The notes under the pieces were generated by a model, which saw only the letters and a list, made by a program, of their open reading frames with translations, ran no database searches and was not told the origin of the DNA. From NCBI GenBank assembly GCA_041306605.1, contig JBFZFB010000166.1, positions 1,807 to 65,806 of the forward strand: a DNA stretch of 64,000 bases, given 5' to 3'. This DNA comes from Lentisphaerota bacterium. Lineage in GTDB: Bacteria; Verrucomicrobiota; Kiritimatiellia; UBA8416; JAQBFJ01. A program made the position numbers and the translations under genes. This document shows, in pieces, positions 31,371-47,044 of this stretch (its first letter is position 1; each line of letters starts with the position of its first letter).

Positions 31371-31373
31371 TAT
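31299..31373. repeat. Direct repeat copy A (~75 bp) = authentic 3' end of esterase gene 29145..31370
   Basis: gactgggcattcgcgggcaacgcccagtctttcaaactcaaacgcctgcgcgtactggtccactgcaagtaat. It is about 77% identical to copy B at 32003-32075, including a 36-bp perfect core ttcaaactcaaacgcctgcgcgtactggtcca(c/t)t. Confidence 0.85.
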
Positions 31374-32002: not shown

Positions 32003-32075
32003 GACTGGACATTCTCCGGCAATGCCGGGTCATTCAAACTCAAACGCCTGCGCGTACTGGTCCATTATAAATAAT
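32003..32075. repeat. Direct repeat copy B (~73 bp) = orphan, in-frame, diverged esterase C-terminus (…DWTFSGNAGSFKLKRLRVLVHYK*)
   Basis: gactggacattctccggcaatgccgggtcattcaaactcaaacgcctgcgcgtactggtccattataaataat. It translates to a variant of the esterase tail DWAFAGNAQSFKLKRLRVLVHCK* (4 substitutions, stop conserved), so it looks like the scar of a lost paralog rather than a target-site duplication. Confidence 0.8.
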
Positions 32076-32130
32076 TTACAAAAGCCGGTTTTTATGCGTA
32101 TTGTATAAATACAGGAAATTAAGGGTTTGA

Positions 32131-34119: not shown

Positions 34120-34298
34120 CCGCCGGATTTGGCATAAGAATTAAGCCCTTTGCAGAAAGAATTTGGCAGGACTTGTCCTATCGAACCAGTCATGTCGAAA
34201 GACGTGATAACAGGATTTATCATGTCTTTTCCCCTGAAAACAAACCCGACACTCACTGTTTCCTGATAAAATTATTGTTCAATATCACACGCGCAGAG

Positions 34299-35453
34299 TT
34301 AAGCCCTGCCTTTTCGCGCCAGCACACCTTCCACCTTCGGCATGTACTTGCTCCAGTGATCCATGAACCTGAGCTGTCTTTCCGCTTTTTTCCGCATCTC
34401 TTCCCGGTTGGACTCAAGAGCCACATGAATGTTTCCCAGAAATCCTTTCGCCTCTTCAGGATCGCTGTCTATATAGAGCTGAGCCGCCTGCGTAAACGCC
34501 GTCACCGCTTTCTGCTCAAGATCATCCTGCAGGAAATATCCGAAAAACACGCCAAGATCCTTCCCCTGCACGCCAAGCAGTTTCATCTTCTCACGCAGAT
34601 ATTTAAAACGCCTTACATCCGAACGCATGCGCGCCCAAAACCGCTTACCGCGTTTCGGGGGCAGATGCGTGACCCACATGTTCTGATCAAACACATACGC
34701 GAATCCCTTATAATGCGCCTGTATCACATAATCATCATCCTCGCCGCGCGGCAGGGCAATCTGATCATACGGCACATGCAAAAACAGCTTGCTGTTTATG
34801 GCCATGTTCCCGCCGAAAGCCACATGACAATCCGTGATGGGGCCCTTTCTCTGAAACGCCTGCTTCACAGCCGCGTTGAACAAATCATCTTTGGGCCATG
34901 TTTCGAACGGAACTTTAACCTGACCGTCATAAAATTTACTGCCTTTCGCGTCAATATAGTAACCGCTCTTGCCGTAAATCGTTTTACCCTTGAACTTCTT
35001 GCCCATATCGCCAAGCGCCTTCTTCATATAGCTCGGATCATCAATAATCTCATCGTCATCAACTTGTATGACATTGTCAAACCCGCGCGTAATGGCATAC
35101 ATGAGCGACATATTCCGCAAACGTCCGTACATGTTCATATTGAAAACATCTTCATACGAAGAAGGAAAGCCCGCCTTCATGAGCGCCTTCCAGATTCCTT
35201 TTATGTCCTCACCCGTCAAAACATGAACATCAAGCGGAAACCGCTTCGCGATTTTCTGAAGATGTTTTTCAATAACCGGATTTGTCGGACCGGGAAACAA
35301 AAGAACATGATCCTTAATCCCGCGTTTCACAAAGTTGGCAAGCATGCGAGGAACCTCACCCTCCTGAGAAACGGGTGTCGGATGATCATAAAGTTCCCAA
35401 GCACCGTCTTTTCCTGTCGTCCAACACGTATACACCGCTATACAATTTCGCAT
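34299..35453 (-). CDS. Putative GT-A-fold glycosyltransferase (DxD/DDD motif), family unassigned
   Basis: 384 aa with protein-like composition. VIQVDDDEIIDD and GEDDDY acidic motifs are typical of nucleotide-sugar transferases. The overlapping 449-aa plus-strand ORF is His/Arg/Phe-rich and judged spurious. Confidence 0.45.
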   Translation of the reverse strand: MRNCIAVYTCWTTGKDGAWELYDHPTPVSQEGEVPRMLANFVKRGIKDHVLLFPGPTNPVIEKHLQKIAKRFPLDVHVLTGEDIKGIWKALMKAGFPSSYEDVFNMNMYGRLRNMSLMYAITRGFDNVIQVDDDEIIDDPSYMKKALGDMGKKFKGKTIYGKSGYYIDAKGSKFYDGQVKVPFETWPKDDLFNAAVKQAFQRKGPITDCHVAFGGNMAINSKLFLHVPYDQIALPRGEDDDYVIQAHYKGFAYVFDQNMWVTHLPPKRGKRFWARMRSDVRRFKYLREKMKLLGVQGKDLGVFFGYFLQDDLEQKAVTAFTQAAQLYIDSDPEEAKGFLGNIHVALESNREEMRKKAERQLRFMDHWSKYMPKVEGVLARKGRA

Positions 35454-35555
35454 ATATCCATCTCCTCCCTGTTTTTATGTTGCCGCTTTATATCACATTG
35501 TTTTTTGTTTTTGCATCCATAACTTAATAATTTTTCATCACCCGAAAAACCCGTA

Positions 35556-36290
35556 TTAATTCCCCGGCATAGGCACTTTTTCAGGCTCATTGTCCTTCGG
35601 TGACTCTTTCTTTGAATCCTCCGTGGTGTCTTCCATGGTATTCTCTGATTCTTTCACGGTTTTCACCAGCTCAGCCCAGATATAAGCGCCGATTTCCGGA
35701 TTACCCAACGGCGGACGGTACGCGATGAATATGCAGTCCGTTTCAACCATCATTGCAATATACATGGAATAAAACCGCTTCCGGGTGCTTTTCTCCTCCA
35801 CATCGAGAAAAATAACCTGACAACCATTAACAACAACCCGCTCGCTCTTGAGCACCTGATATCCGGAAATAGACAACACATGTCTGAGCGAATAGCCGTT
35901 GTCTCCGAAAAACTCATTGGTAACCTTGTCGTAACCAACTGATTCGGACTTGTTTCCGTAAATCCATCCGGTGTCCTGCGGCAGTTCCTGTGTAACCTGC
36001 ACCTGATAAATCTTATTGGACGGCATCCAGTATGAAAACGCGGGCATATTTCTCACACCAACATACACATAATTTTCTGGTATGCTTAAAGTTACCGGCA
36101 TCTTAACGCTCAACTGACCGCCCATAAATTCGTTAAGCGATACCTGCTTAAGAGGAATGTCAACTACCTCGCCGCCGGGCAGTTTAACCGAAGAAGTGGA
36201 GCATCCTGCCGAAACAACCACCATAAGCATGATGATAAATATTTTATTCACCTTTTGTTCAACCCCTATCGCCATAAAATAATCAGACAC
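35556..36290 (-). CDS. Hypothetical lipoprotein
   Basis: N-terminal hydrophobic stretch ending in a lipobox-like VVSAGCSTSS. The start codon is uncertain (an internal ATG or GTG a few codons downstream of 36290 is possible). Confidence 0.45.
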   Translation of the reverse strand: MSDYFMAIGVEQKVNKIFIIMLMVVVSAGCSTSSVKLPGGEVVDIPLKQVSLNEFMGGQLSVKMPVTLSIPENYVYVGVRNMPAFSYWMPSNKIYQVQVTQELPQDTGWIYGNKSESVGYDKVTNEFFGDNGYSLRHVLSISGYQVLKSERVVVNGCQVIFLDVEEKSTRKRFYSMYIAMMVETDCIFIAYRPPLGNPEIGAYIWAELVKTVKESENTMEDTTEDSKKESPKDNEPEKVPMPGN

Positions 36291-36727
36291 CCCGTCCCGC
36301 TGTCAAAAGTTGAAATATTGACTGATAACGCCGTGGTGATCAAGCTGATTCGACAAACTTCCCAACGAACACACCCCCCTTCCCCCTTCTTACTTGGATA
36401 TTGGATGTTGGTTGCGGAGGTCCGGACGAAGTCCCGGCATCCGCAAGTTTATTATGGTTGGTGACTGTCATAACTAACCCATTAATTACTGTGTTATTGT
36501 GCAAAGTAAAACCAGGCTATTTAAGTAGTCATGTGTTCTAAACCCTTTTTTATCGAGGGAAACGGCTGTTTTTTCCTACAACCGCTGTGCCAAACTACCA
36601 GCACACTCTGTGTTATTCAGCGCGATTTTTTTAAAAAAGGTCAATTACGCGTCAATCGATTTTCTGTCCAGTTTTCTCCCTCGTCACCCTGAATGAAAAG
36701 TAGAGACCTGTTTTTTATAACAGCGTC

Positions 36728-36767
36728 TAGGAGATTTAGCCTTTCATGCTATCTGACCCCTCTATCT
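36728..36767. repeat. ~40-bp repeated intergenic motif, copy 1 (TAGGAG(A/G)TTTAGCCTTTCATGCTATCT(G/A)ACCC.TCTATCT), overlapping the GH95 stop codon
   Basis: A near-identical copy lies at 39301-39340, 36/40 identical. On the minus strand it reads AGATAG-N8-AGATAGCATGAAAGGCTAAA(T/C)CTCCTA, i.e. two AGATAG half-sites. Confidence 0.7.
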
Positions 36768-39281
36768 TTCAATGTCGAGCTTGTACACAACGCCCGGCTC
36801 GGTAGTAAACTCAAACGTGCCGTCTTCCGAAGGTCTGACGTTTATCTGCTTTTCACCACGTTTAATTCCGCGCAGGCCATGAGCCGACAGCCGGCACACG
36901 CCGCCGCGCAATGACCGCACGTCTCCCTCAACCAATCGCCCGGCTTCCCAACGGATCGACACTTCAAATCCGCCAACCGCCATAAGACCCGACACACGGC
37001 CATCACTCCACGAAGGCGGGAGCGCCGGCAGAAGCTCAATCCGGCCGTCATGACTCTGAATTAGCATCTCGGCGATTCCCGCGCCAAGCCCGAAAACACA
37101 GTCCATCTGAAGACTGCCGGCCGTCATGAAATTCATGCCGAGCCCTTTGTAGATTCCCTTCGCGATAAGCCCGCAGATCTCCTGCTCCTTCAGGCGGGCA
37201 AAGAGACTTATCGCCCACGAAGCCGGCCAGCCGCCCCCGAACGCGCCATGGGTGTAACGGCGTAACATTGACTTGCGACAGGCTTCGTACAGTTCAGGAT
37301 TACGGCGCGGCGTAAACAGGTTCCCCGGATAGAGACCATACATGTGGGAAACATGCCCCATGCCGGGATTACCTTCCCGGAATTCAAAGCACCACTCCTG
37401 CAGTTGACCGCCACTCCCAACCTTGAACGGATAGAGCCGCTTAATGGCCCGATCAAGCCGGTCATGGAAATCCGACCGGACTCCAAGCAGTTCGGCGGCA
37501 TGCCCGCAATTCTCGAACAATTCGCGGATGATCGACAGGTCCATCGTGGACGATTTCGAAACCGAGGTGGTGACATCGTCAGGCGGCTGACCGCCCTCGT
37601 CAGGAAAGAAACTGTTCTCCGGCGATGTCGAAGGCGCGGTCGAAAGATAACCCTCCTCATCCTCGACAAGAGAAGAGAGCAGAAATCTCGCCGCGTCCTC
37701 CATGAGCGGATACGCGAACTCGGCAAGATATTTCATATCGCCGCCGTACTCAAAGTGCTGCCACAGATGCCGGCACAGCCATCCGGTGGCCATCGGCCAC
37801 CACGCCCAGCAGGCGAACCCGGCCGACGGCCAGGTCGACCGCCACAGGTCAATGTTGTGATGCACCACCCACCCATCCAAACCGTACCAGTCCACCGCGG
37901 TCTTACGCCCGCTCGCCGCGGATTCCGCCACGAGATCAAGCATCGGCCCATGACACTCGCTCAAGTTCAGTACTTCAGCCCCCCAGTAATTCATCTGCAC
38001 GTTGATATTGGTGGTATAGTTGCTCGACCACGCAGGCTGAACAAGATGGTTCCATATCCCCTGAAGATTAGCGGCCTGCGTCCCGGGACGTGATCCGGCA
38101 ATAATAAGATAACGCGTGTACTGCAACGCAAGCGCGGCCAACGACGGATCTTCCGTATCCGCCTGAAGCGCCATCCGCTCGCTCGTGGAGCGCCCGTCCG
38201 GTACGGCTGAGCCTATTTCAATGCTGACCCGGCGGAACCGTTTTCCATGCTCGTCAACGTGCCGCTCACGAATCTTTTCCCATGAAGACGCGCCGGCGGC
38301 AGCGATCGTGTTCCGGCATTTCGCGGCAACCGCGGCAGTGTCAGTGTCCCGCGCGCCAAGATACCCGGAATAATTAGTGTGCGCCGCAAGCAGAAAGACG
38401 ATAGAACGCGCGCCGTCAACCGATAAACGATCCACGCCCGCCGTCACAACACCGTCCGTTTCCACAACGCGCACAACAGCCGCGAAACGAATGCTCTTCG
38501 ATACATCATCCGGAAGATACACCACCGAAGGCTGGGCGGATGAGAAATTTGGTTCCACGTGATCTGGCGCCCGGCCGGCGATGAGGAGCTTATCACCGTC
38601 AGCCGAAACCGTGTGACGGAGCAGACTGTTCATCGCGAGACAGCAATTCATGACACCCGAGTCCACCGAAAACCTCACCGCCAGCACCTGTGCGGGGGCG
38701 CTTACCAAATACTCGCGTCTGAACCATCGCCCGTCCTCGCGATACTCGATGGTCTCTATGGCCGTGTCGAGGTCGAGCGTCCGCCGGTATGAATCACGGG
38801 AGATACCCCCGGCCCGCCGCAGGTACTCGCTTCCCGGATGGCCTCCGGCGTGGGTTGATACGTAAAGCGTCCCGAGCGGCTGATACGACTGCATCCAGAT
38901 ACCGAGCATGCGTTCATTCACCAGGCGGTTAGCCTCAACGAATTTATGCTCAAAAATGAGCCGTCTCGCCTCAGGGAGAAGCATCCGCGCGTTTTTATTC
39001 ACGTGGCTGGACTCGCTCCCCGACCAGAGGGTATCCTCGTTGATCACAATACTTTCATCAGGCGCGGTTCCAAAAACTGCCGCGCCGAGCCGTCCATTGC
39101 CTAGCAGGTGCGCGTCGGCAAACCGTGCGGCTGGTGTTGTTTCCCATAAACGATACGATTCATTACTCATGGCAGAAGCTCCCTGTAGAAATTCCAAAAG
39201 GATCGTGTCACCCTGCCACTGACAATAAAACCAGCAGACAACCCGGTCAACATGAAAAACAGCTTTTCCGTTTGTTGACAA
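36762..39281 (-). CDS. GH95 alpha-L-fucosidase
   Basis: SYRLWETTPAARFADAHLLGNGRLGAAVFGTAPDESIVINEDTLWSGSE is the GH95 N-terminal signature (W-x-x-PA...GNGRLGAMVFG...NE-TLWSG). Likely true start is ATG about 39170 (MSNESYRLW), with GGAG RBS and an upstream TTGACC-17-TATTGT promoter at about 39215-39245. The ORF track extends to 39281. Confidence 0.8.
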   Translation of the reverse strand: MSTNGKAVFHVDRVVCWFYCQWQGDTILLEFLQGASAMSNESYRLWETTPAARFADAHLLGNGRLGAAVFGTAPDESIVINEDTLWSGSESSHVNKNARMLLPEARRLIFEHKFVEANRLVNERMLGIWMQSYQPLGTLYVSTHAGGHPGSEYLRRAGGISRDSYRRTLDLDTAIETIEYREDGRWFRREYLVSAPAQVLAVRFSVDSGVMNCCLAMNSLLRHTVSADGDKLLIAGRAPDHVEPNFSSAQPSVVYLPDDVSKSIRFAAVVRVVETDGVVTAGVDRLSVDGARSIVFLLAAHTNYSGYLGARDTDTAAVAAKCRNTIAAAGASSWEKIRERHVDEHGKRFRRVSIEIGSAVPDGRSTSERMALQADTEDPSLAALALQYTRYLIIAGSRPGTQAANLQGIWNHLVQPAWSSNYTTNINVQMNYWGAEVLNLSECHGPMLDLVAESAASGRKTAVDWYGLDGWVVHHNIDLWRSTWPSAGFACWAWWPMATGWLCRHLWQHFEYGGDMKYLAEFAYPLMEDAARFLLSSLVEDEEGYLSTAPSTSPENSFFPDEGGQPPDDVTTSVSKSSTMDLSIIRELFENCGHAAELLGVRSDFHDRLDRAIKRLYPFKVGSGGQLQEWCFEFREGNPGMGHVSHMYGLYPGNLFTPRRNPELYEACRKSMLRRYTHGAFGGGWPASWAISLFARLKEQEICGLIAKGIYKGLGMNFMTAGSLQMDCVFGLGAGIAEMLIQSHDGRIELLPALPPSWSDGRVSGLMAVGGFEVSIRWEAGRLVEGDVRSLRGGVCRLSAHGLRGIKRGEKQINVRPSEDGTFEFTTEPGVVYKLDIER

Positions 39282-39300
39282 GAAATCTCACAACAGCATT

Positions 39301-39340
39301 TAGGAGGTTTAGCCTTTCATGCTATCTAACCCGTCTATCT
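39301..39340. repeat. ~40-bp repeated intergenic motif, copy 2, upstream of the GH95 promoter
   Basis: See copy 1 at 36728-36767. Confidence 0.7.
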
Positions 39341-39537
39341 GAAATACTTAATTCTTAAGTGGCTGTACCCGCCGAACGGATTCGCACCCAGCACCAGCCG
39401 CGTAACTTTCAAACCGCAAAAATCTACTGTCGGCAATAACGCCATTTTATTGTCTGTCATAATCTTCCCCTATTTCCCTTGTTCATATTGCTAATCAACA
39501 TCTTGATTCTAAACACTCAATTCTCTCATTCGAAAGG

Positions 39538-39729
39538 GAGACAGGGCCTGCCCTTAAGTGTCTTGCTTCAACCTCACAGAACAAACCACCACTTCCTCTT
39601 TAATTAAGCATCAATATAATACTCTAAATCTGATTTGTCACGTCATTCGACATGATTGGTTCGACATGATAAATCATACACAGAATCGGCATTATTGAGC
39701 CATTGAATAAGAACCGGACGGTCTATAAG
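39538..39729. repeat. Left copy of bipartite direct repeat (83-bp block 39538-39620 plus 30-bp block 39700-39729) bounding the defense-gene remnant segment
   Basis: gagacagggcctgcccttaag..tgtcttgcttcaacctc(a/g)cagaac(a/g)aaccaccacttcctctttaattaag.atcaatataat followed by ccattg(a/g)ataagaaccggacggtc(t/a)taa. The second copy is at 41221-41308 / 41348-41375. Contains an AGGGCctGCCCT tight palindrome. Confidence 0.75.
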
Positions 39730-40019
39730 CCTGCATTCTGTGCCACGCGCGAATTCCTGCGCGTCTTCCGTAAACCGGCTCCATCATAATCAGAATCATC
39801 AAGCCCATTTTCACGACAGAGGTAAGCTTGAAAACCGTCATCGGCTTTTCCTAAATCATGCAACAATCCCGCATTCCAAGCCCATTCCGATGATTGAAAG
39901 GCAGAGGCAAACTTCCCCGCCATTTCTGCAACATTCTTCAAATGCACATCCAACGGCTGCCACTTTTCCTTTGGCTGGCCTTCCAAACTGTGTGCGTAAT
40001 ATCTTTTCTCACTTTTCAT
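39723..40019 (-). pseudogene. Cas3 HD-nuclease N-terminal fragment (gene remnant)
   Basis: MKSEKRYYAHSLEGQPKEKWQPLDVHLKNVAEMAGKFASAFQSSEWAWNAGLLHDLGKADDGFQAYL matches the Cas3 HD-domain N-terminus pattern (AHS...W..L..HL..VA..A..FA...GLLHD.GK..FQ). Only ~65 aa are recognisable, then unrelated sequence and a stop. No helicase domain, no other cas genes, no CRISPR array. Confidence 0.5.
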
Positions 40020-40056
40020 GACTCAAACTGTACCACAACCAGAGTGACACAGGATG

Positions 40057-40905
40057 TCACTGCAGTTTTTTATCAGATTCTTTTTCTTTGAGATAGTTAT
40101 GTTTTGAGATAATCGGGCGTTTCAGTCGTTTTTCCAGAGCCTTCCGCGCATTCCCGGCTATTTTGCCGCCAGCATGAGCATCGTCTTTTAATTTTGGCAT
40201 TCCCTCCGAATCTTCCGTGCGGTGTATTTCCGTTGTCGCACGCTCTCCAAGCATTGTGAATATCAGCTCAAAATCATCCATGTGATCTCGCAGGTTTTCC
40301 CGTTTCAGCCCTTTCAGCTTCTTGTATTCGTTCGGAGTAACACCAAATGCCGCCTTTGATATCTGGGCTGTCAATATCTCGTAATCCTTGTCCTCCCGCG
40401 CCCCTCGTTTCTGCCATTCGTCAGTCAATTCTTCTCTAATAGCAATGCCGCGCATACGCTTTTCAATCCAGTCGTCGCTGTATCCTTTGAGCTTATACAA
40501 CATCCTTGTACGCTTTGAGGCAAGTTCAGGATCTTCTATTTCCTGCACCCGCTCGTAGCCCACCTTCGCCAGCCATCTCTTGAACGGCTCGGCTTTCGGG
40601 GAGGGAATGGATTGAATTAACCGGAATATGCCTTCGGTATTCCAACAGTACATTTTCTGCTTTCCACCCGCAGTGTCCACTTCAAGCATAAGGGGTGGTA
40701 CAAAGTGTACCCCTCCTTTGGCGAGAAGTTCCGACAGCTCCTTCTCCCTCTCTTTTAATCGTTTGAAATATTGTGCAGGATCTGTGGATCCAGTTAATGA
40801 TTCAATAATGTCATTGATCACAAACCACCATTCGTTCTGGTATAACATTTTTCTGATCTGTTTGCCTTTGAATAAAGCTATTCGTGTATCTTTTTCCGTA
40901 CTCAT
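40057..40905 (-). CDS. DinD-like DNA-damage-inducible protein (Bro-N domain plus DinD C-terminal domain)
   Basis: 282 aa. The N-terminus IALFKGKQIRKMLYQNEWWFVINDIIESLTG is Bro-N-like. The C-terminal KGLKRENLRDHMDDFELIFTMLGERATTEIHRTEDSEGMPKLKDDAHAGGKIAGNARKALEKRL parallels E. coli DinD (KGLKKNQKILDHMGSTELAANLFRATQTEEKLKRDG...). Recalled from memory, not searched. Confidence 0.55.
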   Translation of the reverse strand: MSTEKDTRIALFKGKQIRKMLYQNEWWFVINDIIESLTGSTDPAQYFKRLKEREKELSELLAKGGVHFVPPLMLEVDTAGGKQKMYCWNTEGIFRLIQSIPSPKAEPFKRWLAKVGYERVQEIEDPELASKRTRMLYKLKGYSDDWIEKRMRGIAIREELTDEWQKRGAREDKDYEILTAQISKAAFGVTPNEYKKLKGLKRENLRDHMDDFELIFTMLGERATTEIHRTEDSEGMPKLKDDAHAGGKIAGNARKALEKRLKRPIISKHNYLKEKESDKKLQ

Positions 40906-40984
40906 AACGGCATCCTTTCCAATTGTACTATTTCACCGTACGGTTCAATATTCAACTGTCCGATTCTATCGGACACTTCAGAAT

Positions 40985-41215
40985 TCATGTTTCCCGCCTC
41001 CCGTTTTGCGCCCGCAGAACATCCGATTCTGTAATCCTGCGCTGACCGGTGAGCGCATGCTTCACCAAATCCAACATGGCGTTGAACTCGCGCTTCCCGG
41101 TCAACACCTCTCCATGATCGGCCACCCGCTGCTTCGATTTGATCTGTACTTCCATTAGTTCCTTATCCGTCTTCTCCGGGACTAACAATATCCTGATAAT
41201 TGGAGAAATTATCAC
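40985..41215 (-). pseudogene. N-terminal fragment of a gamma-class N6-adenine DNA methyltransferase (type IIG/Eco57I/PglX-like), remnant
   Basis: 76-aa ORF containing HGEVLTGKREFNAMLDLV, resembling the GEVFTP-x3-V-x2-ML-DL motif at the start of the catalytic domain of Eco57I/MmeI/PglX-type methyltransferases. Too short to be functional. Confidence 0.3.
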
Positions 41216-41220
41216 GCTCA

Positions 41221-41375
41221 GAGACAGGGCCTGCCCTTAAGCATTAGTGTCTTGCTTCAACCTCGCAGAACGAACCACCACTTCCTCTTTAATTAAGATC
41301 AATATAATCTTTTAATCTGTCCACGCATGCAATCAATATTTTTTCAACCATTGGATAAGAACCGGACGGTCATAA
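41221..41375. repeat. Right copy of bipartite direct repeat (41221-41308 and 41348-41375)
   Basis: See 39538-39729. Lies ~250 bp from the tRNA-Thr gene. Confidence 0.75.
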
Positions 41376-41624
41376 CAGGCAAGAAGTCAGTCCGCCTACG
41401 CCAAGGCTTCGGCGGATCTTCCCCAATGGCGGATGTCGGGGCTACGAAAGACAAGTCCGCCACTGCGGATAAGAAAAGAATGCCAATAACCCCACCCCAC
41501 CCATCAAAAAGAAAACAACCATAATAAAAGCTTTGATTGTTGCTTTGCTCATATTTCACTCGCGTGCGCAAGTGATATCATCTTTTGCCCGCCATTACAA
41601 GAATGATAAAATCACCGGCCCGCC

Positions 41625-41700
41625 TGGAGCCAACGGTCGGGATCGAACCGACGACCTGCTCATTACGAATGAGCTGCTCTACCAACTGAGCTACGTTGGC
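41625..41700 (-). tRNA. tRNA-Thr (anticodon CGT)
   Basis: Reverse complement GCCAACGTAGCTCAGTTGGTAGAGCAGCTCATTCGTAATGAGCAGGTCGTCGGTTCGATCCCGACCGTTGGCTCCA folds as a canonical cloverleaf: 7-bp acceptor stem GCCAACG/CGTTGGC, D stem GCTC/GAGC, anticodon stem GCTCA/TGAGC with loop TTCGTAA (anticodon CGT), T arm GTCGG-TTCGATC-CCGAC, encoded CCA. Confidence 0.85.
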
Positions 41701-41747
41701 CTAAAAAAGGTAATAATCATGTAACTTTATAAATGTAGCACGGTAAG

Positions 41748-42902
41748 TCAAGCACCTTGAATATCATCTTTGACATGACTTGCTTCTGTCTTTTTACCAC
41801 CGGCTCCGAGCATTCTTATAAGAAGCAGTTCTAAAACCATCTCTTGCGGGACCCTGCTGGATACCAGTTTTACATGGGCGTTCATCAGTGCTTTACGGCA
41901 ACGCGCCAGTTCCGGCATGGAGAATCCTTTTGCCTGAGCCGCCAGCAGACTTGCCCGGTATGGATGGACTTTACGCGGATCTTTGTCAAATTCTTCAGAG
42001 AACCCTTTGTCTATCTCAGGCGGGAGGTCTTTCCATTTCGCTTCGGTTTTTCCGTATGAACTCCGGTCCACCACCAGCCATCCGTTGTTTAGGGCTTCTT
42101 TGTAAAACATCAAATCCCTGATTCTGCCGGACAAGCCCATGATGAGGCCTATCGGATTTTCTTTCTGGAAGAACAGTTGCCGGAGTATTTTAAGGCTTCC
42201 CGCCAGATCACGCCGGCCAAAAGCGTCGGCAAGATCCCAAGCGAGGGATTCACGGGAGGAGCTAACGATAGTGTCAATATCACTTTTGGTGACTGTTTTG
42301 CGGTCCCCCATAAAAAGGACCAGTTTTTCGATTTCATTAACCATTTGCCGGGTATTCGCGCCTACTTTTTCCTGAAAATATGCGATTACATCGCCCGGCA
42401 TTTTGAGGTCGTTTTTCTGAATGATATCACGCAGGCGCGCGCCGGCATCTTTTTCAGCCTGATAGCCTTTATCGGAAACGGCGAACTCGTGCACCTCGCC
42501 GGCGGCACTGCAGGCTTTGAAAAACGCGTATCTTTTATCCACCTTTGGCGCGGTAATGACCAGCACCTGGCCGGAGGACAGTCCTTTGTTTATCAGGGCC
42601 GTAAAATCGTTTACCCGCTGTTTCACGGTTTCGGATTTGCCTGTAATGTTATCATGGAAGAAACCGGCGTCTTTGAGCCACACCACCTTGCGAGAGCAAA
42701 ACAATCCGAGCGTTTGGATGGCTTCTTCGCATCTGTTTAAAGCGGTTATGGCGGCATCCATGGTAGCATCCGGACTGCTTTCGATGATTTCCAGTCCGAG
42801 CGCGCGGTCTTCCGGCGGAAGCAGGGTGTCAATAATTTCCCGGGTCTTAGCGGACACCAGGTACTCGTCTTCACCTAATATAAGATAAACAGACTTGGTC
42901 AT
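41748..42902 (-). CDS. holA: DNA polymerase III delta subunit
   Basis: 384 aa. N-terminus MTKSVYLILGEDEYLVSAKTREIID... (HolA-typical Y-L-x-x-G-x-(D/E)-x-x-L) and overall clamp-loader delta architecture. Confidence 0.75.
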   Translation of the reverse strand: MTKSVYLILGEDEYLVSAKTREIIDTLLPPEDRALGLEIIESSPDATMDAAITALNRCEEAIQTLGLFCSRKVVWLKDAGFFHDNITGKSETVKQRVNDFTALINKGLSSGQVLVITAPKVDKRYAFFKACSAAGEVHEFAVSDKGYQAEKDAGARLRDIIQKNDLKMPGDVIAYFQEKVGANTRQMVNEIEKLVLFMGDRKTVTKSDIDTIVSSSRESLAWDLADAFGRRDLAGSLKILRQLFFQKENPIGLIMGLSGRIRDLMFYKEALNNGWLVVDRSSYGKTEAKWKDLPPEIDKGFSEEFDKDPRKVHPYRASLLAAQAKGFSMPELARCRKALMNAHVKLVSSRVPQEMVLELLLIRMLGAGGKKTEASHVKDDIQGA

Positions 42903-42991
42903 AGTTCAAAACCATAAGCTGAGAAGGGGCAAAAGGGCAAGGCGATTCATGAAATGAGCCTTGTTTATTCGCAAAAACGGTCTCTGACTTT

Positions 42992-44626
42992 ATGGATGAC
43001 AAGAACGGGCAAATAGCATATTATCCCGAGTTCAGCTGGAGATATTCCTTGAAAGACATTGTTTCAAAAATAAGGACAAAAAAGACAAAAACCCGCGAAA
43101 AACAGGCCTGCAGGGCGCCCTCAGAACGCCAGCCTCTGCATAAAAGGCCGATTGCTGGCTTTTTTATAGTTTTTCTGCTCTGGCTGGCAACAGCAGGCCT
43201 GCTTTGTTTTCAGCGTATGATGGAAAATCCCAGCTGGTCGCTGGAATTAACGCTCCAACTGGCGAGTGATGTGACATTTCTGCTTATCAGCTTGTTTGCC
43301 ATAGGTGTATTTATGGAGGCGGTAAACCCCGGTTTCACCAGGAAAAACTCCAAGATATTGCTTATTTCCCTTGTATCGCTGGTTTCCATTATTCCGGCAG
43401 GCGCCATTTTTTACATGGCGGGCCGGGTAACCCTGATCCAGCATGATGTTGCTATTTTTCTTATACCTTTCGCCATGGCACCCATGCTTGCGACGATTTT
43501 GACTAATAGAAGGATCGGTATAGCGGCGGGTGTATGGACATCATTGGTGACGGCATTTATTGTGGGGCGTAGTTTTCCTCTTTTTATTACAGGCATGATT
43601 GTGACTGTATTGACATCTCAGGGCATTCACAGGGTCCGCACAAGGACCAAAGTGCTGAAAATAGGGCTTGCCGCAGGACTTGCGGAGATACCGTGTGTGT
43701 TTGCCATTACATCTTTAAAGGGTGTTGACGCGGATATTATCTTGATCCTGAACCAGGCGTCGGCCTGTGTAGTCAGCGGCTTTTTATCGGCAATAATAGT
43801 GCTGTTGATTCTGCCTTTTTTTGAGACCTTGTTCCATATTACAACAGACATAACACTGCTTGAACTGTCGGACATGGGCCATCCCCTGCTGGAGCGTCTG
43901 GCGATAGAAGCGCCGGGCACATATCATCACAGTCTGGTTGTGGCAAACCTGGCGCAGGCGGCGGCCGGCGAGATTGGTGCCAACACGCTCCGCACAAGGG
44001 TATGTTCTTATTTTCATGATATAGGCAAACTGACGAAGCCGGATTTTTTCACAGAGAACATTCAACTGCAGGCCAATCCGCATGATGATCTCCCGCCGAG
44101 CATGAGCACGCTGGTTATCATTGCTCATGTAAAGGAGGGTTTAAGCCTTGCCATGCATTACAAACTGCCCGATCCTGTAATACAGGTTATTCAGGAGCAT
44201 CACGGCACCAGCCTGCTGTCGTATTTCCATCATAAAGCCGTATCACAGATGGAATTCGCATTGACTCACGAAGTAGCGCCGGCAACAAACGGACAGGCGA
44301 AAATAAACGAAGCCGACTTCAGGTATCCCGGCCCGAAACCAATTTCACGCGAGTCCGCGATCATCTGTCTGGCGGACGCGGTGGAGGCGGCTTCCCGGTG
44401 CATGGAGAAGATCACACCACCCCATATTGAAGGTCTGGTCAATGAGATAATAAACACCCGGCAGATTGACGGACAGCTTGATAATTGCCATCTTACGCTG
44501 GCGGATCTGACAAAAATCAAACGATCTTTTGTAATTTCGTTGTTGAACATGTTTCACACCCGGATATCCTATCCAAAAGATGAAAATAGAGATAAACAAC
44601 AGACAAAAACTAGCCAGGGTGAATAA
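42992..44626 (+). CDS. 7TM-receptor-linked HD/HDIG phosphohydrolase (PgpH/YqfF-like, candidate c-di-AMP phosphodiesterase)
   Basis: Multiple TM helices, then an HD domain HHSLVVANLAQAAAGEIGANTLRTRVCSYFHDIGKLTKP and downstream His/Asp motifs. The conserved pgpH-ybeY neighbourhood supports the call. Confidence 0.65.
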   Translation: MDDKNGQIAYYPEFSWRYSLKDIVSKIRTKKTKTREKQACRAPSERQPLHKRPIAGFFIVFLLWLATAGLLCFQRMMENPSWSLELTLQLASDVTFLLISLFAIGVFMEAVNPGFTRKNSKILLISLVSLVSIIPAGAIFYMAGRVTLIQHDVAIFLIPFAMAPMLATILTNRRIGIAAGVWTSLVTAFIVGRSFPLFITGMIVTVLTSQGIHRVRTRTKVLKIGLAAGLAEIPCVFAITSLKGVDADIILILNQASACVVSGFLSAIIVLLILPFFETLFHITTDITLLELSDMGHPLLERLAIEAPGTYHHSLVVANLAQAAAGEIGANTLRTRVCSYFHDIGKLTKPDFFTENIQLQANPHDDLPPSMSTLVIIAHVKEGLSLAMHYKLPDPVIQVIQEHHGTSLLSYFHHKAVSQMEFALTHEVAPATNGQAKINEADFRYPGPKPISRESAIICLADAVEAASRCMEKITPPHIEGLVNEIINTRQIDGQLDNCHLTLADLTKIKRSFVISLLNMFHTRISYPKDENRDKQQTKTSQGE

Positions 44627-45080
44627 CATTCAACTGAAGAAACTTGTTCTTTACCTCATGGACAAGGTCCATAAGCTTGATCCTGCGTCTTGGGATGAAA
44701 TATCCATTGTCATAACAGATGACGCGGGAATAAAAGCCGTTAATCAGAAATATCTGAATAAAAACCATGTTACTGACGTAATAAGTTTCCGTTACGCGCC
44801 GGCACCCGGCATAAGTGATCTTCCGAGCGGTGAAGTTATCGTAAATCTTCAGAGGGTCCTGGAGCTGGCACGCAAGCGTAAAAATCTGGAACCATGCCGC
44901 GAGCTGGCTCTTTACATAGCACATGGATGCGACCATCTGGCGGACCAGACGGATTACGACACTGTCAGCCGCAACAGAATGCGCCGCCGCGAACTGCAAT
45001 GGCTGGCAGGCGCACCATGGGGCCAAATCATGAAAACTGTTTTCTGCGCAACAATATTCTTTATTATTAACTTCTCATGA
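44580..45080 (+). CDS. ybeY: Endoribonuclease YbeY (rRNA maturation factor)
   Basis: 166 aa, TDVISFRY...GEVIVNLQRV...LYIAHGCDHLADQTDYD, matching the YbeY H-G-x-L-H-L-x-G-Y-D-H metal motif region. Overlaps the pgpH-like gene by 47 nt. Confidence 0.7.
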   Translation: MKIEINNRQKLARVNNIQLKKLVLYLMDKVHKLDPASWDEISIVITDDAGIKAVNQKYLNKNHVTDVISFRYAPAPGISDLPSGEVIVNLQRVLELARKRKNLEPCRELALYIAHGCDHLADQTDYDTVSRNRMRRRELQWLAGAPWGQIMKTVFCATIFFIINFS

Positions 45081-45871
45081 TCTTAAAAACAAACGCCATA
45101 GTTTTACGTGTACTGCCTTTTTCCAGAACATCTCATATTGTGACATGGCTCACGGAAGATTACGGAAAGATCAGCACAATGATAAAAGGGGCATGCCGGC
45201 CCAAGAGTCAGTTTCTGGGCCAGTATGATCTGTATTACACCTGCGAAATGCTTTTCTATTCGCACGAACGGAACGGGCTTCATATTGCCAAAGAGTGTAC
45301 CCCTCTTGAAACACGAACGGCGTTCAGAAGCAACTGGCGGGCGGCTTCATGCGCTTCGTACATAAGCGAACTGCTGACAAAGCTGATTCCTCCCGGCCAT
45401 ACACAGCCTGAGCTCTATAAACTTACCGAAACTGTTTTTGATTTTCTGACAGGCAACGAGATCAAGCCCCAAATTCTCTTCTGGTTTGAGATCCGCCTGC
45501 TCTCCATATCCGGCTTTGAGCCGCGTCTCTTCGCATGCGCCAAATGCGGCGCGCCTCTTCCTGAACCGGCCGGATTATCATTTTCAACCGCGCATGGCGG
45601 CATCATGTGCGCGAACTGCAGTGCCCAGACAACCACAACGCGCATTCCGCCAGACACACTTGCCATACTGAAAACATGGCAAAATGCCCAGTCTCTACGC
45701 AGTGTTTGCAATACCAAATGCACAATAAATCAATTACTTGATTTCCGCAGGATTCTTGGTAGATTTCTGGAATGTCATCTCGATATCATGCCGCAAAGCA
45801 GAAATATCGCGCTTGAAATGCTAACACAGGCCCCGGCAAAGCTGATAGTCGGCCGAGAAGAGGCCTCATAA
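45077..45871 (+). CDS. recO: DNA repair protein RecO
   Basis: 264 aa. N-terminal OB fold MILKTNAIVLRVLPFSRTSHIVTWLTEDYGKISTMIKGA and a C4 zinc motif (CAKCGAP...CANC). ATGA overlap with ybeY. Confidence 0.8.
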   Translation: MILKTNAIVLRVLPFSRTSHIVTWLTEDYGKISTMIKGACRPKSQFLGQYDLYYTCEMLFYSHERNGLHIAKECTPLETRTAFRSNWRAASCASYISELLTKLIPPGHTQPELYKLTETVFDFLTGNEIKPQILFWFEIRLLSISGFEPRLFACAKCGAPLPEPAGLSFSTAHGGIMCANCSAQTTTTRIPPDTLAILKTWQNAQSLRSVCNTKCTINQLLDFRRILGRFLECHLDIMPQSRNIALEMLTQAPAKLIVGREEAS

Positions 45872-45885
45872 ATACGGAGAATATA

Positions 45886-46965
45886 ATGAGAACATTAAGA
45901 ATCGTAACCCCGATATTGGCAGTACTGCTGGCTATAACAGGATGTTCAAAATCTTCCAAGCCAACCGCGTCAAATGAAGCAGACACCGCTTCCCCGCAAC
46001 TGCCACCACCGCCCATAACAGAACTCGCGCCTTCGGACGTTCTGGCTGATGTTGACGGAACAAAGCTTATGGTGGCAGACACAGAAGCTGAGATGGAATA
46101 TCAGCTTTCAACAGTCGGCGACCGCATTCCGCCGGAAAGACTCCCTGCCGCAAAAGACCAGATCCGCAGAACAATTGTAGATCAGTTTGTAATGAAACAA
46201 CTTCTGCTTAACGAAGCCATCCGGAAAAACATCACGGTAACCAAGGAAGATGAAGATAAAGCTTACGAGCAGATCAAGGCTAATCTTCCTCCCGGCAAGA
46301 CAGTGGAAGACATGCTGAAGCGCAGTCCGATAGGTGAAGAGCGGACGCGTGAAGAAATCAAGAACAGCATCAAAATAAACAAACTGTTTGAAGAATGCCT
46401 GGCCACCAATACAAATATACCGGAAGAAGAAATATCAAAGTTCTGCGAAAAGTATAAAGACAGCATGTCAATGCCGGAAACCGTGCATGCCCGGCATATA
46501 TTAATATCCTCATCATCAAATGATACTGAAGTAGTAAAAGCCGAGCAGAAGAAGCTGGCCGAAAATGTGCAGGTACAGCTTGTAGGCGGAAGCAATTTTG
46601 TTGAAATGGCAAAGCAGTATTCAGGCTGTCCCAGCAAGGAAGAAGGCGGTGACCTTGGAACATTCCCGAGAGACAGGATGGTCAAGCAATTCTCTGACGC
46701 CGCGTTCGCTCAGGAAGTCAACGCGATTGGCCCTGTAGTTGAGACAAAATTTGGTTATCATATCATTCAGGTGCTGGAACACAACAGTCCTCAGCCGGTA
46801 TCGCGCGAACGTGCAATAGAAGTGTTGAAAAACCACAAACTTCAGCTTGCCGCCCGCAGTCTTATCGAGGAATTGAGAAGCAAGGCGAAAATCACCTACG
46901 GACAGGGAATGACCCCAATGCCACCGCCGCCAATGCCGGCCGGTGAAGAAATGGAAATTCAGTAA
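45886..46965 (+). CDS. Parvulin-type peptidyl-prolyl cis-trans isomerase (SurA/PrsA-like) lipoprotein
   Basis: Lipobox LAITGCSKSS. Parvulin domain HARHILISS...GGDLGTFPRDRMVKQFSDAAFAQEVNAIGPVVETKFGYHIIQVLE. Confidence 0.75.
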   Translation: MRTLRIVTPILAVLLAITGCSKSSKPTASNEADTASPQLPPPPITELAPSDVLADVDGTKLMVADTEAEMEYQLSTVGDRIPPERLPAAKDQIRRTIVDQFVMKQLLLNEAIRKNITVTKEDEDKAYEQIKANLPPGKTVEDMLKRSPIGEERTREEIKNSIKINKLFEECLATNTNIPEEEISKFCEKYKDSMSMPETVHARHILISSSSNDTEVVKAEQKKLAENVQVQLVGGSNFVEMAKQYSGCPSKEEGGDLGTFPRDRMVKQFSDAAFAQEVNAIGPVVETKFGYHIIQVLEHNSPQPVSRERAIEVLKNHKLQLAARSLIEELRSKAKITYGQGMTPMPPPPMPAGEEMEIQ

Positions 46966-46995
46966 ACGCGTAATTACGCAATGCAACCAACCGGA

Positions 46996-47032
46996 TACTG
47001 CATGATCAAGCCAATGGCATGATCATGCAGTA
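46996..47032. terminator. Perfect 13-bp-stem hairpin between convergent genes (putative bidirectional terminator)
   Basis: TACTGCATGATCA-agccaatggca-TGATCATGCAGTA. No clear T-tract on either side, so intrinsic-terminator function is not certain. Confidence 0.45.
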
Positions 47033-47044
47033 ATGCAGACTTAA

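What the first reader, a model, noticed from the sequence alone, without database searches (positions are those of the whole stretch)
39350..41700. Decayed defense islet next to tRNA-Thr(CGT): Cas3-HD fragment, DinD/Bro-N gene and methyltransferase fragment, bracketed by ~85+30-bp direct repeats
Between the GH95 gene and tRNA-Thr there is a recognisable but truncated Cas3 HD N-terminus, an apparently intact DinD-like Bro-N protein and a short fragment with the GEV(F/L)T..….MLDL methyltransferase motif. There is no integrase, no other cas genes and no CRISPR array.

The segment 39538-41375 is bounded by a bipartite direct repeat (83/88-bp block plus a 28-30-bp block). tRNA genes are common integration sites. 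This looks like the remains of an integrated defense element (type I CRISPR-Cas and/or R-M or BREX) that has been largely deleted by recombination between repeats.
Basis: partly seen in the sequence, partly recalled or inferred. Interest (0 to 1): 0.55.

Follow-up and report, generated by a model that had tools for sequence, protein, structure and literature searches.

The report
Decayed defence islet around intact PDC-S13
A 1.8-kb leftover of anti-phage defence DNA next to a tRNA gene keeps one intact, very conserved Bro-N/DinD-like gene between the dead 5' ends of a cas3 gene and a restriction-modification methyltransferase gene; this is an ordinary case of defence-island decay.

Summary

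- **cas3 stub.** ORF 39723-40019(-) is the first ~80 of ~770 residues of a type I-C Cas3.
- **Intact gene.** ORF 40057-40905(-) is a complete Bro-N protein. It matches the PADLOC candidate PDC-S13 over its full length, and its C-terminal half is distantly DinD-like.
- **Methyltransferase stub.** The ORF at 40985-41155(-) holds the first 33 codons of the methyltransferase of a split type IIG-like R-M module.
- **Repeat.** A diverged 155-191-bp direct repeat (39538-39728 and 41221-41375) brackets the three ORFs.
- **Absent.** The 64-kb window has no other cas gene and no CRISPR array. No integrase was found, but that test was weak.

This is a decayed defence islet. However, the repeats show no similarity to the tRNA, and recombination between them cannot produce two stubs from two different systems.

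Homologues of the intact gene are 62-87% identical across phyla. They recur embedded in type I-C cas operons and in type III and IIG R-M operons, so the stubs are most likely scars of former neighbours.

The adjacent GH95 gene is a separate module, 95.5% identical in DNA to a segment of an unrelated MAG. It carries a Fic 5' stub. The whole stretch 36.4-41.4 kb is therefore a patchwork.

No close relative exists (nearest holA is 64% identical), so the history cannot be reconstructed. Interest is low to moderate.

The parts
41625..41700 (-). tRNA-Thr(CGT), the landmark next to the variable stretch
   Evidence: ARAGORN. Rfam tRNA, 71 bits. The tRNA-Thr(CGT)-holA adjacency is also seen in a distant relative, L096.
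41221..41375 (.). Direct repeat copy B (155 bp), immediately upstream (in minus-strand sense) of the methyltransferase stub
   Evidence: No Rfam match. No excess folding energy, z -0.1. No similarity to the tRNA.
40985..41155 (-). 5' stub of the first gene of a split type IIG-like R-M module. Homology covers about 41057-41155 (33 codons) and ends after ...AMLDLVKH, before SAM-binding motif I (FLEPACGTGNF).
   Evidence: phmmer against 1.84e9 representatives, best E 3.1e-10. Family sequences. DNA similarity to IMG/VR methyltransferase loci is confined to 41058-41155. The parent module is assigned to REase_MTase_IIG and MTase_II models by PADLOC. The NCBI annotation calls this 56-aa ORF.
40935..40975 (-). 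Operator-like sequences upstream of the Bro-N gene: inverted repeat TGTCCGA-N5-TCGGACA (40957-40975) and palindrome ACCGTACGGT (40935-40944)
   Evidence: The same inverted-repeat half-sites lie 39 nt upstream of the homologue in L088. A regulatory role is inferred, not shown.
40057..40905 (-). Intact 282-aa Bro-N + DinD-C-like gene (PADLOC candidate PDC-S13). It is the only functional-looking gene of the islet.
   Evidence: Pfam Bro-N. PDC-S13, E 4.8e-103. phrog_15286, E 2.6e-80. At least 8000 homologues, the top 120 being 78-87% identical and full length. All columns that are invariant among 42 homologues are kept.
39723..40019 (-). 5' stub of a type I-C cas3. Homology covers about 39774-40016 (about 82 codons of about 770). 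Only the first HD motif (LLHDLGK) is present, and a conserved His is replaced by Tyr at the break.
39538..39728 (.). Direct repeat copy A (191 bp). It has a 35-40-bp extra central segment and the best promoter-like site of the region (GTGACA-17-TATATT, 39641->39613, minus strand).
   Evidence: The extra segment is 83% similar, in inverted orientation, to 34170-34210. Logan contig L091 runs through the cas3-stub/copy A junction.
39335..39460 (-). 41-aa ORF: 5' stub (34 codons) of an unidentified conserved gene (MLPTVDFCGLKVTRLVLGANPFGGYSH...). It is cut off where the GH95 module begins.
   Evidence: Three homologues, E 2e-9 to 1e-8, 84-89% identical over the N-terminus. No Pfam match. No PDB match.
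36436..39332 (-). Separate acquired module. It holds GH95 (CDS 36762-39170, GC 0.59), its own 49-nt direct repeats (39292-39340 and 36719-36767), and the first 12 codons of a Fic gene (36471-36436).
   Evidence: 95.5% nucleotide identity over 2846 nt to L097 (GCA_032123435.1), with unrelated flanks on both sides. GC profile. Pfam GH95 domains.

Best explanation
Window 39538-41375 is a relic of defence-island DNA. It lies in a variable, patchwork stretch (36.4-41.4 kb) between tRNA-Thr(CGT) and the next ordinary genes.

One gene survives intact: a 282-aa protein with an N-terminal Bro-N DNA-binding domain and a helical C-terminal domain related to E. coli DinD. PADLOC lists this family as the phage-defence candidate PDC-S13. 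In other genomes the family typically sits inside defence operons. Here it is flanked by non-functional 5' stubs:
- upstream, 33 codons of the methyltransferase of a split type IIG-like R-M module;
- downstream, about 82 of about 770 codons of a type I-C cas3.

Shown:
- the identity of each piece;
- the breakpoints;
- the absence of other cas genes and of a CRISPR array in the window;
- the recurrent embedding of homologues in type I-C, type III and type IIG loci.

Inferred:
- Two deletions, or illegitimate recombination events, removed the bodies of the large systems. The small gene kept its own promoter and operator region and was retained.
- The bracketing 155-191-bp repeat is a duplicated piece of local intergenic promoter/leader DNA, created when the block was inserted. 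It is not a tRNA-derived att site.
- The surviving protein binds DNA through Bro-N. Through its DinD/DdrC-like domain it acts on broken or RecA-coated DNA, as an accessory or back-up to nuclease-based defence.
For: Gene identities:
-.

Context of homologues:
- At least 594 loci in GTDB species representatives encode a relative.
- Among about 75 loci with called neighbours, the immediate neighbours include Cas7c upstream (3), Cas4 downstream (4), Cas3c downstream (2), type III methyltransferase upstream (4), type III REase downstream (3) and type IIG downstream (2-3). Examples are L010 and L009.
- The window's cas3 stub matches the Cas3 N-termini in 7 of those loci.
- Nucleotide similarity to homologue loci stops at the ORF ends.

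Status of PDC systems:
- They are defined by 'guilt-by-embedding' in BREX, DISARM and type I R-M loci, and are untested (10.1101/2024.01.29.577857).

Methyltransferase stub:
- It is the first gene of a three-gene module seen in 55-68 of 80 IMG/VR loci and on a Rhizobium plasmid. PADLOC assigns the module to type IIG/II R-M models.

Patchwork:
- The GH95 module is 95.5% identical to a segment of another MAG and ends in a Fic stub.
- A fourth stub lies at 39335-39460.

Assembly:
- Logan contigs from SRR28346265 reproduce 39627-40880 and both outer flanks.

Fold:
- The C-terminal domain of the AlphaFold2 model is confident (pLDDT 70-96). Its top PDB matches are DdrC of D. radiodurans, E 4e-5.
- DinD is LexA-regulated (PMC6590174) and is cited as a RecA-filament regulator (PMC4457935).
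Against: - No genome closer than 64% holA identity is available. The order of events, and whether a full island ever sat here, cannot be checked.
- The stretch 40880-41655 (Bro-N 5' end, methyltransferase stub, copy B) has no independent contig.
- Logan contigs break at 36851, 39627, 40880 and 41655 for unknown reasons.
- The origin of the repeat is unexplained. No other copy was found anywhere.
- Only about 13-14 of 75 homologue loci have an identified defence gene as an immediate neighbour. Many homologues, especially in Patescibacteria, sit among housekeeping genes.
- No member of PDC-S13 has been tested for defence. No paper in the library mentions it.
- The AlphaFold2 model is poor for residues 1-120 (pLDDT below 50). 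The DdrC superposition has rmsd 13-16 A.
- hhalign to DinD is weak, E 0.067.
Confidence: 0.7

Rival explanations
1. A defence island integrated site-specifically next to or into tRNA-Thr, the two repeat copies are attL and attR, and the island later shrank by recombination between repeats.
For: - The block is close to a tRNA gene.
- A real direct repeat brackets exactly the defence-derived DNA.
- MAG and Logan contigs break in or near this tRNA, as expected at a strain-variable site.
- The flank beyond the tRNA differs in a distant relative.
Against: - The repeat is about 250 bp away from the tRNA and shows no significant similarity to it.
- No integrase was found in the window (one-query test) or among the flanking genes with precomputed Pfam hits.
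- The copies are long (155-191 bp), 86-88% identical, and contain indels. That is unlike a crossover core.
- Recombination between attL and attR would delete everything between them. It would not create two 5' stubs.
Confidence: 0.15
2. Metagenome assembly artefact. The islet, or its linkage to this locus, is a chimera of strains or organisms that share the conserved Bro-N gene or methyltransferase 5' end.
For: - The source is a MAG contig.
- The Bro-N gene and the methyltransferase 5' end are both highly conserved across many organisms, which invites graph tangles.
- Logan contigs break at 39627 and 40880. The internal contig differs at 4 positions, while both flanks are 100% identical.
- Many database 'stubs' of the same methyltransferase could themselves be chimeras.
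Against: - An independently built contig spans Bro-N, the cas3 stub and the unique middle of copy A.
- Another spans the GH95 3' end and its downstream flank.
- The exact repeats between the two copies are at most 25 nt, too short to mislead assemblers that use larger k.
- The repeat copies are diverged, not collapsed.
Confidence: 0.06
3. Prophage remnant. The Bro-N gene is a phage antirepressor left behind by a degraded prophage, and its defence-gene neighbours are coincidental.
For: - The Bro-N domain is common in phage antirepressors. There are weaker PHROG hits to Ant families, and a full-length hit to phrog_15286.
- Some sources name homologues 'phage antirepressor'.
- The methyltransferase family is frequent in IMG/VR contigs.
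Against: - Only 4 of 50,697 phage records carry a relative. All four are 5-7-kb uncultured fragments.
- No phage structural or replication gene was recognised among the genes scanned around the islet.
- Homologues sit inside cas and R-M operons in the same orientation with 0-15-nt gaps.
Confidence: 0.04
4. The stubs are not junk. The short Cas3-HD and methyltransferase N-terminal peptides are expressed and work together with the Bro-N protein, for example as decoys or regulators, forming a minimal three-gene unit.
For: - All three ORFs are open, on the same strand, and closely spaced.
- N-terminal stubs of the same methyltransferase recur in many metagenomes.
Against: - In other genomes the Bro-N gene is flanked by full-length genes of several different systems, never by this trio.
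- The stubs lack all catalytic motifs beyond the first.
- Each ends in a non-homologous read-through tail.
Confidence: 0.03

Closest known systems
PADLOC phage defence candidate PDC-S13 (Payne et al. 2024 preprint, 'guilt-by-embedding')
   Same: - Full-length HMM match, E 4.8e-103.
- Homologues are embedded in defence operons in the same orientation, as described for PDC systems.
   Different: - Here both host systems are reduced to stubs.
- The embedding seen for close homologues is in type I-C CRISPR-Cas and in type III and IIG R-M. The preprint used BREX, DISARM and type I R-M to define PDCs.
- The family is untested.
E. coli DinD (LexA-regulated; cited as a RecA-filament regulator)
   Same: - The C-terminal helical half is homologous at profile level. 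Each protein hits the other's PDC-S13 model (E 1.2e-5 and 2.2e-16).
- They share the KGLKxxxxLxDHM...EL stretch.
   Different: - BLASTP gives E 0.24.
- No NCBIfam DinD hit.
- The N-terminal half matches Pfam Bro-N; the direct BLASTP alignment to DinD does not extend into it.
- SOS regulation was not examined.
Type I-C Cas3 (for example PDB 8g9u_P, 8zns_A)
   Same: The first about 77-82 residues align, including the first HD motif.
   Different: About 90% of the protein is missing: the rest of the HD domain, the helicase and the C-terminal domain. There are no partner cas genes and no array.
Split type IIG-like R-M module: 215-aa N6-methyltransferase N-part, 538-aa Eco57I part, 847-aa GIY-YIG protein. 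Found on Rhizobium plasmid pRphaN671a and in many IMG/VR contigs.
   Same: The first 33 codons, plus about 10 codons of upstream sequence, are 57-87% identical to the family.
   Different: Everything from SAM-binding motif I onward is absent, as are the second and third genes.
tRNA-linked genomic or defence islands
   Same: Variable, horizontally acquired content beside a tRNA gene, with direct repeats at the borders of the block.
   Different: No integrase was found, the repeats are not derived from the tRNA, the GC content of the islet is not deviant, and the islet is only 1.8 kb.
DdrC of Deinococcus radiodurans (DNA-break-binding, damage-induced; PMC9303277, PMC11347143)
   Same: Best structural match of the predicted model (Foldseek E 4e-5, probability 1.0).
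   Different: Sequence identity is 12-14%, TM-score 0.3-0.5 and rmsd 13-16 A. The N-terminal part of the model is unreliable. This is a lead only.

Membership tests
Cas3 (type I CRISPR-Cas nuclease-helicase) | Complete HD nuclease domain | tested here: not met
   Only profile positions 1-54 of 178 of TIGR01596 and 1-80 of 768 of a Cas3c HMM are present.
Cas3 (type I CRISPR-Cas nuclease-helicase) | SF2 helicase domains | tested here: not met
   The ORF ends at residue 98. The Cas3c HMM finds no further hit in a six-frame translation of the window.
Cas3 (type I CRISPR-Cas nuclease-helicase) | Partner cas genes and a CRISPR array nearby | tested here: not met
   HMMs for cas5c, cas8c, cas7c, cas4, cas1 and cas2 give no hit in 64 kb. 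No array-like repeats.
Bro-N domain proteins (PF02498) | Match above Pfam's gathering score | tested here: met
   56.9 bits against 25.6, residues 17-114.
PDC-S13 (PADLOC candidate system) | Full-length match to a PDC-S13 model | tested here: met
   PDLC04920, E 4.8e-103, positions 3-274 of 286.
PDC-S13 (PADLOC candidate system) | Embedded in, or next to, a defence system | tested here: inconclusive
   In this window only stubs of such systems flank the gene. Homologues are embedded in type I-C, type III and type IIG loci in about 13-14 of 75 loci.
PDC-S13 (PADLOC candidate system) | Anti-phage activity | not testable with these tools
   PDC systems are described as untested candidates. No paper mentions PDC-S13.
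DinD (E. coli DNA-damage-inducible protein D) | Sequence similarity over the whole protein | tested here: not met
   BLASTP E 0.24. hhalign E 0.067 over 60 columns. No NCBIfam hit. Only the C-terminal half is related, through PDC-S13 profiles.
DinD (E. coli DNA-damage-inducible protein D) | SOS (LexA) regulation | not tested
   The LexA box of this lineage is unknown. The upstream inverted repeats found were not compared with any LexA motif.
Gamma-class N6-adenine DNA methyltransferase (MmeI/Eco57I-like, type IIG) | Conserved N-terminal segment of the family | tested here: met
   Residues 21-54 match residues 1-34, best E 3.1e-10. The family consensus is visible.
Gamma-class N6-adenine DNA methyltransferase (MmeI/Eco57I-like, type IIG) | SAM-binding motif I and catalytic motif IV | tested here: not met
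   Homology stops after LDLVKH, before FLEPACGTGNF. No Pfam methyltransferase domain.
tRNA-integrated genomic island | Integrase gene | tested here: not met
   No Pfam integrase among the flanking genes. phmmer with one tyrosine recombinase finds nothing in the window, which is a weak test.
tRNA-integrated genomic island | Flanking repeats that contain the 3' part of the tRNA | tested here: not met
   The best local alignments are no better than those of shuffled sequence (fraction 0.14-0.22). The repeat lies about 250 bp from the tRNA.
Integron cassette array / CALIN | attC sites: imperfect inverted repeats with RYYYAAC...GTTRRRY ends | tested here: not met
   No inverted repeat inside either repeat family. 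By direct reading of the sequence, the short hairpin in the 49-nt repeat has the opposite (GTT...AAC) order.

The most novel reading that the evidence does not exclude
The 5-kb stretch 36.4-41.4 kb is a stack of four captured modules on one strand. Each is cut off within the first 12-82 codons of the next gene (methyltransferase, cas3, an unidentified gene, Fic). Two module borders carry diverged direct repeats.

N-terminal stubs of the same methyltransferase, and of the same 'MLPTVDFCGLK...' gene, also occur in unrelated metagenomes.

This could reflect an integrase-free gene-capture or recombination process that breaks preferentially just inside gene starts, rather than random decay. A milder version: PDC-S13 is an autonomous, unusually conserved DNA-damage-linked accessory of nuclease-based immunity, and it outlives its host systems.
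Probability: 0.08. Interest if true: 0.7.

Novelty: new member of a known kind. Interest (0 to 1): 0.3.

Why it matters
In itself this is a routine example of how defence islands erode: large, costly systems are lost and a small embedded gene stays.

Its use is as a pointer. The surviving gene belongs to an untested candidate family (PDC-S13). That family is 62-87% identical across very distant phyla and is repeatedly wedged into type I-C cas operons (between cas7 and cas4, or before cas3) and into type III and IIG R-M operons. Such conservation is unusual for defence-linked genes. Together with the DinD and DdrC resemblance, it makes the family a reasonable target for experiments on how nuclease-based immunity is coupled to DNA-damage handling.

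The finding also shows that annotation pipelines will meet short 'Cas3' and 'methylase' ORFs that are only scars.

Tried and rejected
1. Repeat as a tRNA fragment or att site: local alignment to the tRNA with shuffles was not significant.
2. Repeat as a structured RNA: no Rfam hit at E <= 10. Folding z-scores ranged from -1.3 to +1.3.
3. Repeat as a dispersed element:
   - no other copy in the window;
   - the three hits to a 20-mer in JGI metagenomes were chance matches with no wider similarity;
   - no hits in IMG/VR.
4. Integron or attC reading: no inverted-repeat structure.
5. Synteny in related genomes:
   - a holA scan of GTDB representatives found nothing;
   - the nearest holA is 64% identical on a 1.4-kb contig;
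   - two relatives at 53-54% keep the holA-to-SurA-like (rotamase) gene synteny, but have different content beyond the tRNA, or the contig ends there.
6. Exact look-ups of the Bro-N and GH95 proteins returned nothing at first. The GH95 context was reached later through cluster members.
7. PDB sequence searches for the Bro-N protein, ORF3 and the 41-aa ORF gave no hits.
8. The idea that the 41-aa ORF is an aldo/keto-reductase N-terminus came from memory and could not be verified. It was dropped.
9. Literature searches for PDC-S13, and for Bro-N with CRISPR, returned nothing relevant.
10. The doubled TTCGACATGAT motif in copy A occurs only once in the window.


Full report
**What is in the sequence.**
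The stretch lies on the minus strand downstream of holA (41748-42902) and tRNA-Thr(CGT) (41625-41700). Reading along that strand, the order is:
- a 155-bp repeat copy B (41375->41221);
- a short methyltransferase-like ORF;
- a 282-aa Bro-N ORF (40905->40057);
- a 98-aa Cas3-like ORF (40019->39723);
- a 191-bp repeat copy A (39728->39538);
- a 41-aa ORF (39460->39335);
- a high-GC GH95 gene (39170->36762).

The repeat is real. Block 1 is 39538-39632 against 41221-41319, 88% over 101 columns, E 7e-28 in a self-comparison of the window. Block 2 is 39692-39728 against 41340-41375, 86%, E 7e-6. Together they form one unit, in which copy A carries an extra 35-40 bp in the middle.

**The three ORFs.**

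*cas3 stub.* The 98-aa ORF is the N-terminus of a Cas3.
- It passes the curated cut-off of TIGR01596 (50.1 against 43.45 bits) but covers only positions 1-54 of 178.
- Its best PADLOC models are Cas3 and Cas3c, E about 6e-16.
- Residues 7-77 align to residues 5-75 of the solved chain 8zns_A and to residues 2-72 of 8g9u_P.
- An HMM built from the Cas3c proteins that neighbour Bro-N homologues aligns positions 1-80 of 768. After that the ORF runs into unrelated sequence.

*Intact gene.* The 282-aa ORF is complete.
- It has a Pfam Bro-N domain.
- It gives a full-length match to PADLOC's PDC-S13 model PDLC04920, E 4.8e-103, and to phrog_15286.
- It keeps every column that is invariant in 42 homologues.
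- 'DinD-like' is true only for the C-terminal half and only at profile level. E. coli DinD hits this protein's model at 2.2e-16, and this protein hits DinD's model at 1.2e-5. Direct BLASTP (E 0.24), hhalign (E 0.067) and NCBIfam do not link them.

*Methyltransferase stub.* The third ORF was the least certain and is now firm.
- phmmer against 1.84 billion representatives gives 420 hits at E <= 1e-3, the best at 3.1e-10. Residues 21-54 align to residues 1-34 of the hits.
- The family consensus is M.xQVxSKxRVADHGEVLTGKREVNAMLDLVKQETERIESRFLEPACGTGNFL. The window's copy stops matching after LDLVKH, before SAM-binding motif I.
- In the longer hits, and in plasmid genes, this segment runs straight into the MmeI/N6 methyltransferase domain.
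- In IMG/VR and on Rhizobium plasmid pRphaN671a, the gene is the first of a conserved three-gene module: a 215-aa methyltransferase N-part, a 538-aa Eco57I part and an 847-aa GIY-YIG protein. The second gene is present in 68 of 80 loci and the third in 55 of 80. PADLOC assigns the module to type IIG/II R-M models.
- DNA similarity to those loci covers only 41058-41155.

**What is not there.**
- The window has no CRISPR-like array.
- HMMs for cas5c, cas8c, cas7c, cas4, cas1, cas2, type III Mod and Res, and the IIG enzymes of the Bro-N loci find nothing else in it.
- No integrase appears among the neighbouring genes. A single-query phmmer search for a tyrosine recombinase is also negative, though that is a weak test.
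- The GC content of the islet (0.42-0.50) does not differ from its surroundings.

**Context of the intact gene elsewhere.**
- The family is very large and unusually conserved. At least 8000 proteins match at E <= 1e-20, and the top 120 are 78-87% identical. They carry names from Omnitrophota, Patescibacteria, Lentisphaerota and Planctomycetota.
- At least 594 loci in GTDB species representatives encode a relative, at 62-83% identity in the best 80.
- Nucleotide similarity to the window stops at the ORF boundaries.
- I clustered the neighbouring ORFs of 82 loci and annotated the clusters. This shows recurrent embedding in defence operons, in the same orientation and with gaps of 0-15 nt:
  - cas7 | X | cas4 in type I-C operons (L010, L012, L024);
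  - X directly upstream of cas3c (L020, L029);
  - mod | X | res in type III R-M (L021, L028, L075);
  - between an SNF2/PLD helicase and an Eco57I-type enzyme (L046, L056).
- About 13-14 of 75 loci have such an immediate neighbour. Many others, mainly in Patescibacteria, lie among housekeeping genes.
- The window's cas3 stub matches the Cas3 N-termini of seven of these loci.
- PDC systems were defined by this 'guilt-by-embedding' logic and are untested (10.1101/2024.01.29.577857).
- Phages hardly carry the gene: 4 of 50,697 records, all small uncultured fragments.

**The surroundings are a patchwork.**
- GH95 has GC 0.59 against about 0.47 for its surroundings.
- Window 36436-39332 is 95.5% identical in DNA to a segment of GCA_032123435.1, and also of GCA_964464015.1 and several Logan contigs. 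There it lies between an AbiEi_2 gene pair and a 512-aa Fic gene. Nothing outside the segment is similar.
- The shared segment carries its own 49-nt direct repeats (39292-39340 and 36719-36767).
- It ends 36 nt into the Fic ORF, so the window keeps only 12 Fic codons.
- The 41-aa ORF upstream of the module is the N-terminus of a conserved but unidentified gene (E 2e-9 to 1e-8), cut where the GH95 module starts.

So four successive pieces each end in a 5' stub of the following gene.

**Reliability of the assembly.**
- Logan contigs from SRR28346265 are 100% identical to 41655-47335 and to 32035-36851, and 99.7% identical to 39627-40880.
- This supports the Bro-N / cas3 stub / copy A junction and the GH95 3' junction.
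- The stretch 40880-41655 has no second assembly.
- The contig breaks at 36851, 39627, 40880 and 41655 are unexplained. The longest exact match between the two repeat copies is 25 nt. Strain variants in the sample are a possible cause.

**Nature of the repeat.**
- It is not related to the tRNA.
- It has no inverted-repeat structure, no Rfam match and no excess folding energy.
- It occurs nowhere else in the window, in JGI metagenomes or in IMG/VR.
- Copy A holds the best promoter-like site of the region, GTGACA-17-TATATT, facing the 41-aa stub and GH95.
- I read it as duplicated local intergenic promoter/leader DNA, produced when the block was inserted. One possible route is a single crossover with a diverged homologous copy. 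This is inference.

**Likely function of the survivor.**
- An AlphaFold2 model built on a shallow alignment is confident only for the helical C-terminal domain (pLDDT 70-96; mean 63.6).
- Foldseek against the PDB gives DdrC of D. radiodurans as the only significant family (E 4e-5 to 7e-4, TM 0.3-0.5, rmsd 13-16 A).
- DdrC is a damage-induced protein that binds DNA breaks (PMC9303277, PMC11347143).
- DinD is LexA-regulated (PMC6590174) and is listed among RecA-filament regulators (PMC4457935).
- My best guess, explicitly inferred: a Bro-N DNA-binding module is coupled to a DinD/DdrC-like domain that acts on broken or RecA-coated DNA, serving as an accessory or back-up to nuclease-based immunity.
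- Operator-like inverted repeats lie upstream at 40935-40975. One of them is shared with the homologue in L088. This suggests the gene has its own regulation.

**Verdict.**
This is a decayed defence islet, but there is no evidence for tRNA-targeted integration, for att sites, or for shrinkage by recombination between the repeats.
- It is a new member of a known kind and of low-to-moderate interest.
- The more unusual points are recorded as leads, not findings: the cross-phylum conservation and the type I-C embedding of PDC-S13, and the run of 5' stubs.

Noticed in passing
window 36436-39332: A 2.9-kb GH95 module (GC 0.59) is 95.5% identical in DNA to a segment of GCA_032123435.1 and GCA_964464015.1, with unrelated flanks (AbiEi_2 gene pair and Fic). 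This looks like recent horizontal transfer of a CAZyme gene together with its 49-nt flanking direct repeats and the first 12 codons of Fic.
   Followed up: yes
window 22020-22143 and 25518-25641; 31299-31371 and 32003-32075: Two more diverged direct-repeat pairs bracket genes. A 124-nt pair (87%) surrounds a GH106 gene (22768-25479), and its upstream copy is the 3' end of the M24 peptidase gene. A 73-nt pair (85%) surrounds about 630 bp with no ORF of 150 aa or more. Gene-sized inserts flanked by diverged duplications seem recurrent in this genome.
   Followed up: partly
L010, L012, L024 (cas7|X|cas4); L020, L029 (X|cas3c); L021, L028, L075 (mod|X|res): Homologues of the Bro-N/PDC-S13 gene, 62-87% identical across distant phyla, are wedged inside type I-C cas operons and type III R-M operons. 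Two loci (L015, L029) carry a second, diverged copy.
   Followed up: partly
proteins P0248-P0397; IMG/VR loci L104-L183: The methyltransferase whose 5' stub sits in the window is the first gene of a three-gene module that is about 80% conserved between IMG/VR contigs and a Rhizobium plasmid. Half of 20 inspected database hits are themselves stubs, diverging between LDLVK and FLEPACG. Clustering bias prevents a frequency estimate.
   Followed up: partly
window 39335-39460; P0398-P0400: The 41-aa ORF shares a conserved N-terminus (MLPTVDFCGLKVTRLVLGANPFGGYSHQS...) with three metagenomic proteins that are also only 42-61 aa long. One of them is on a 48-kb contig. The parent gene was not identified.
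   Followed up: partly
window 39635-39675 and 34170-34210: The extra central segment of repeat copy A contains TTCGACATGAT twice. It is 83% similar, in inverted orientation, to a sequence between two convergent genes 5.4 kb away. It may be a small repeated element.
   Followed up: partly
window 40935-40975; L088 about 39 nt upstream of its homologue: The inverted repeat TGTCCGA-N5-TCGGACA and the palindrome ACCGTACGGT lie upstream of the Bro-N gene. The same half-sites occur upstream of one distant homologue.
   Followed up: partly
window 41443-41553 (-): A 36-aa hydrophobic ORF (MSKATIKAFIMVVFFLMGGVGLLAFFSYPQWRTCLS), followed by a GC-rich hairpin, lies between the tRNA and repeat copy B. It is not in the protein collection.
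   Followed up: no
L095 (contig end about 200 nt after holA); L096 11164-11238; Logan contig end at window 41655: Contigs of this lineage and of a relative end at or near the position of tRNA-Thr(CGT). In another relative the tRNA is inverted relative to holA, and a sulfatase gene follows. This suggests the tRNA flank is a variable spot across the group.
   Followed up: partly
window 10307-15838: Large internal repeats (about 780-1600 nt at 73-80%, and a 156-nt tandem array at 11292-11990) lie within and between the long ORFs 9072-11195 and 11228-15838. These look like repeated-domain surface proteins.
   Followed up: no
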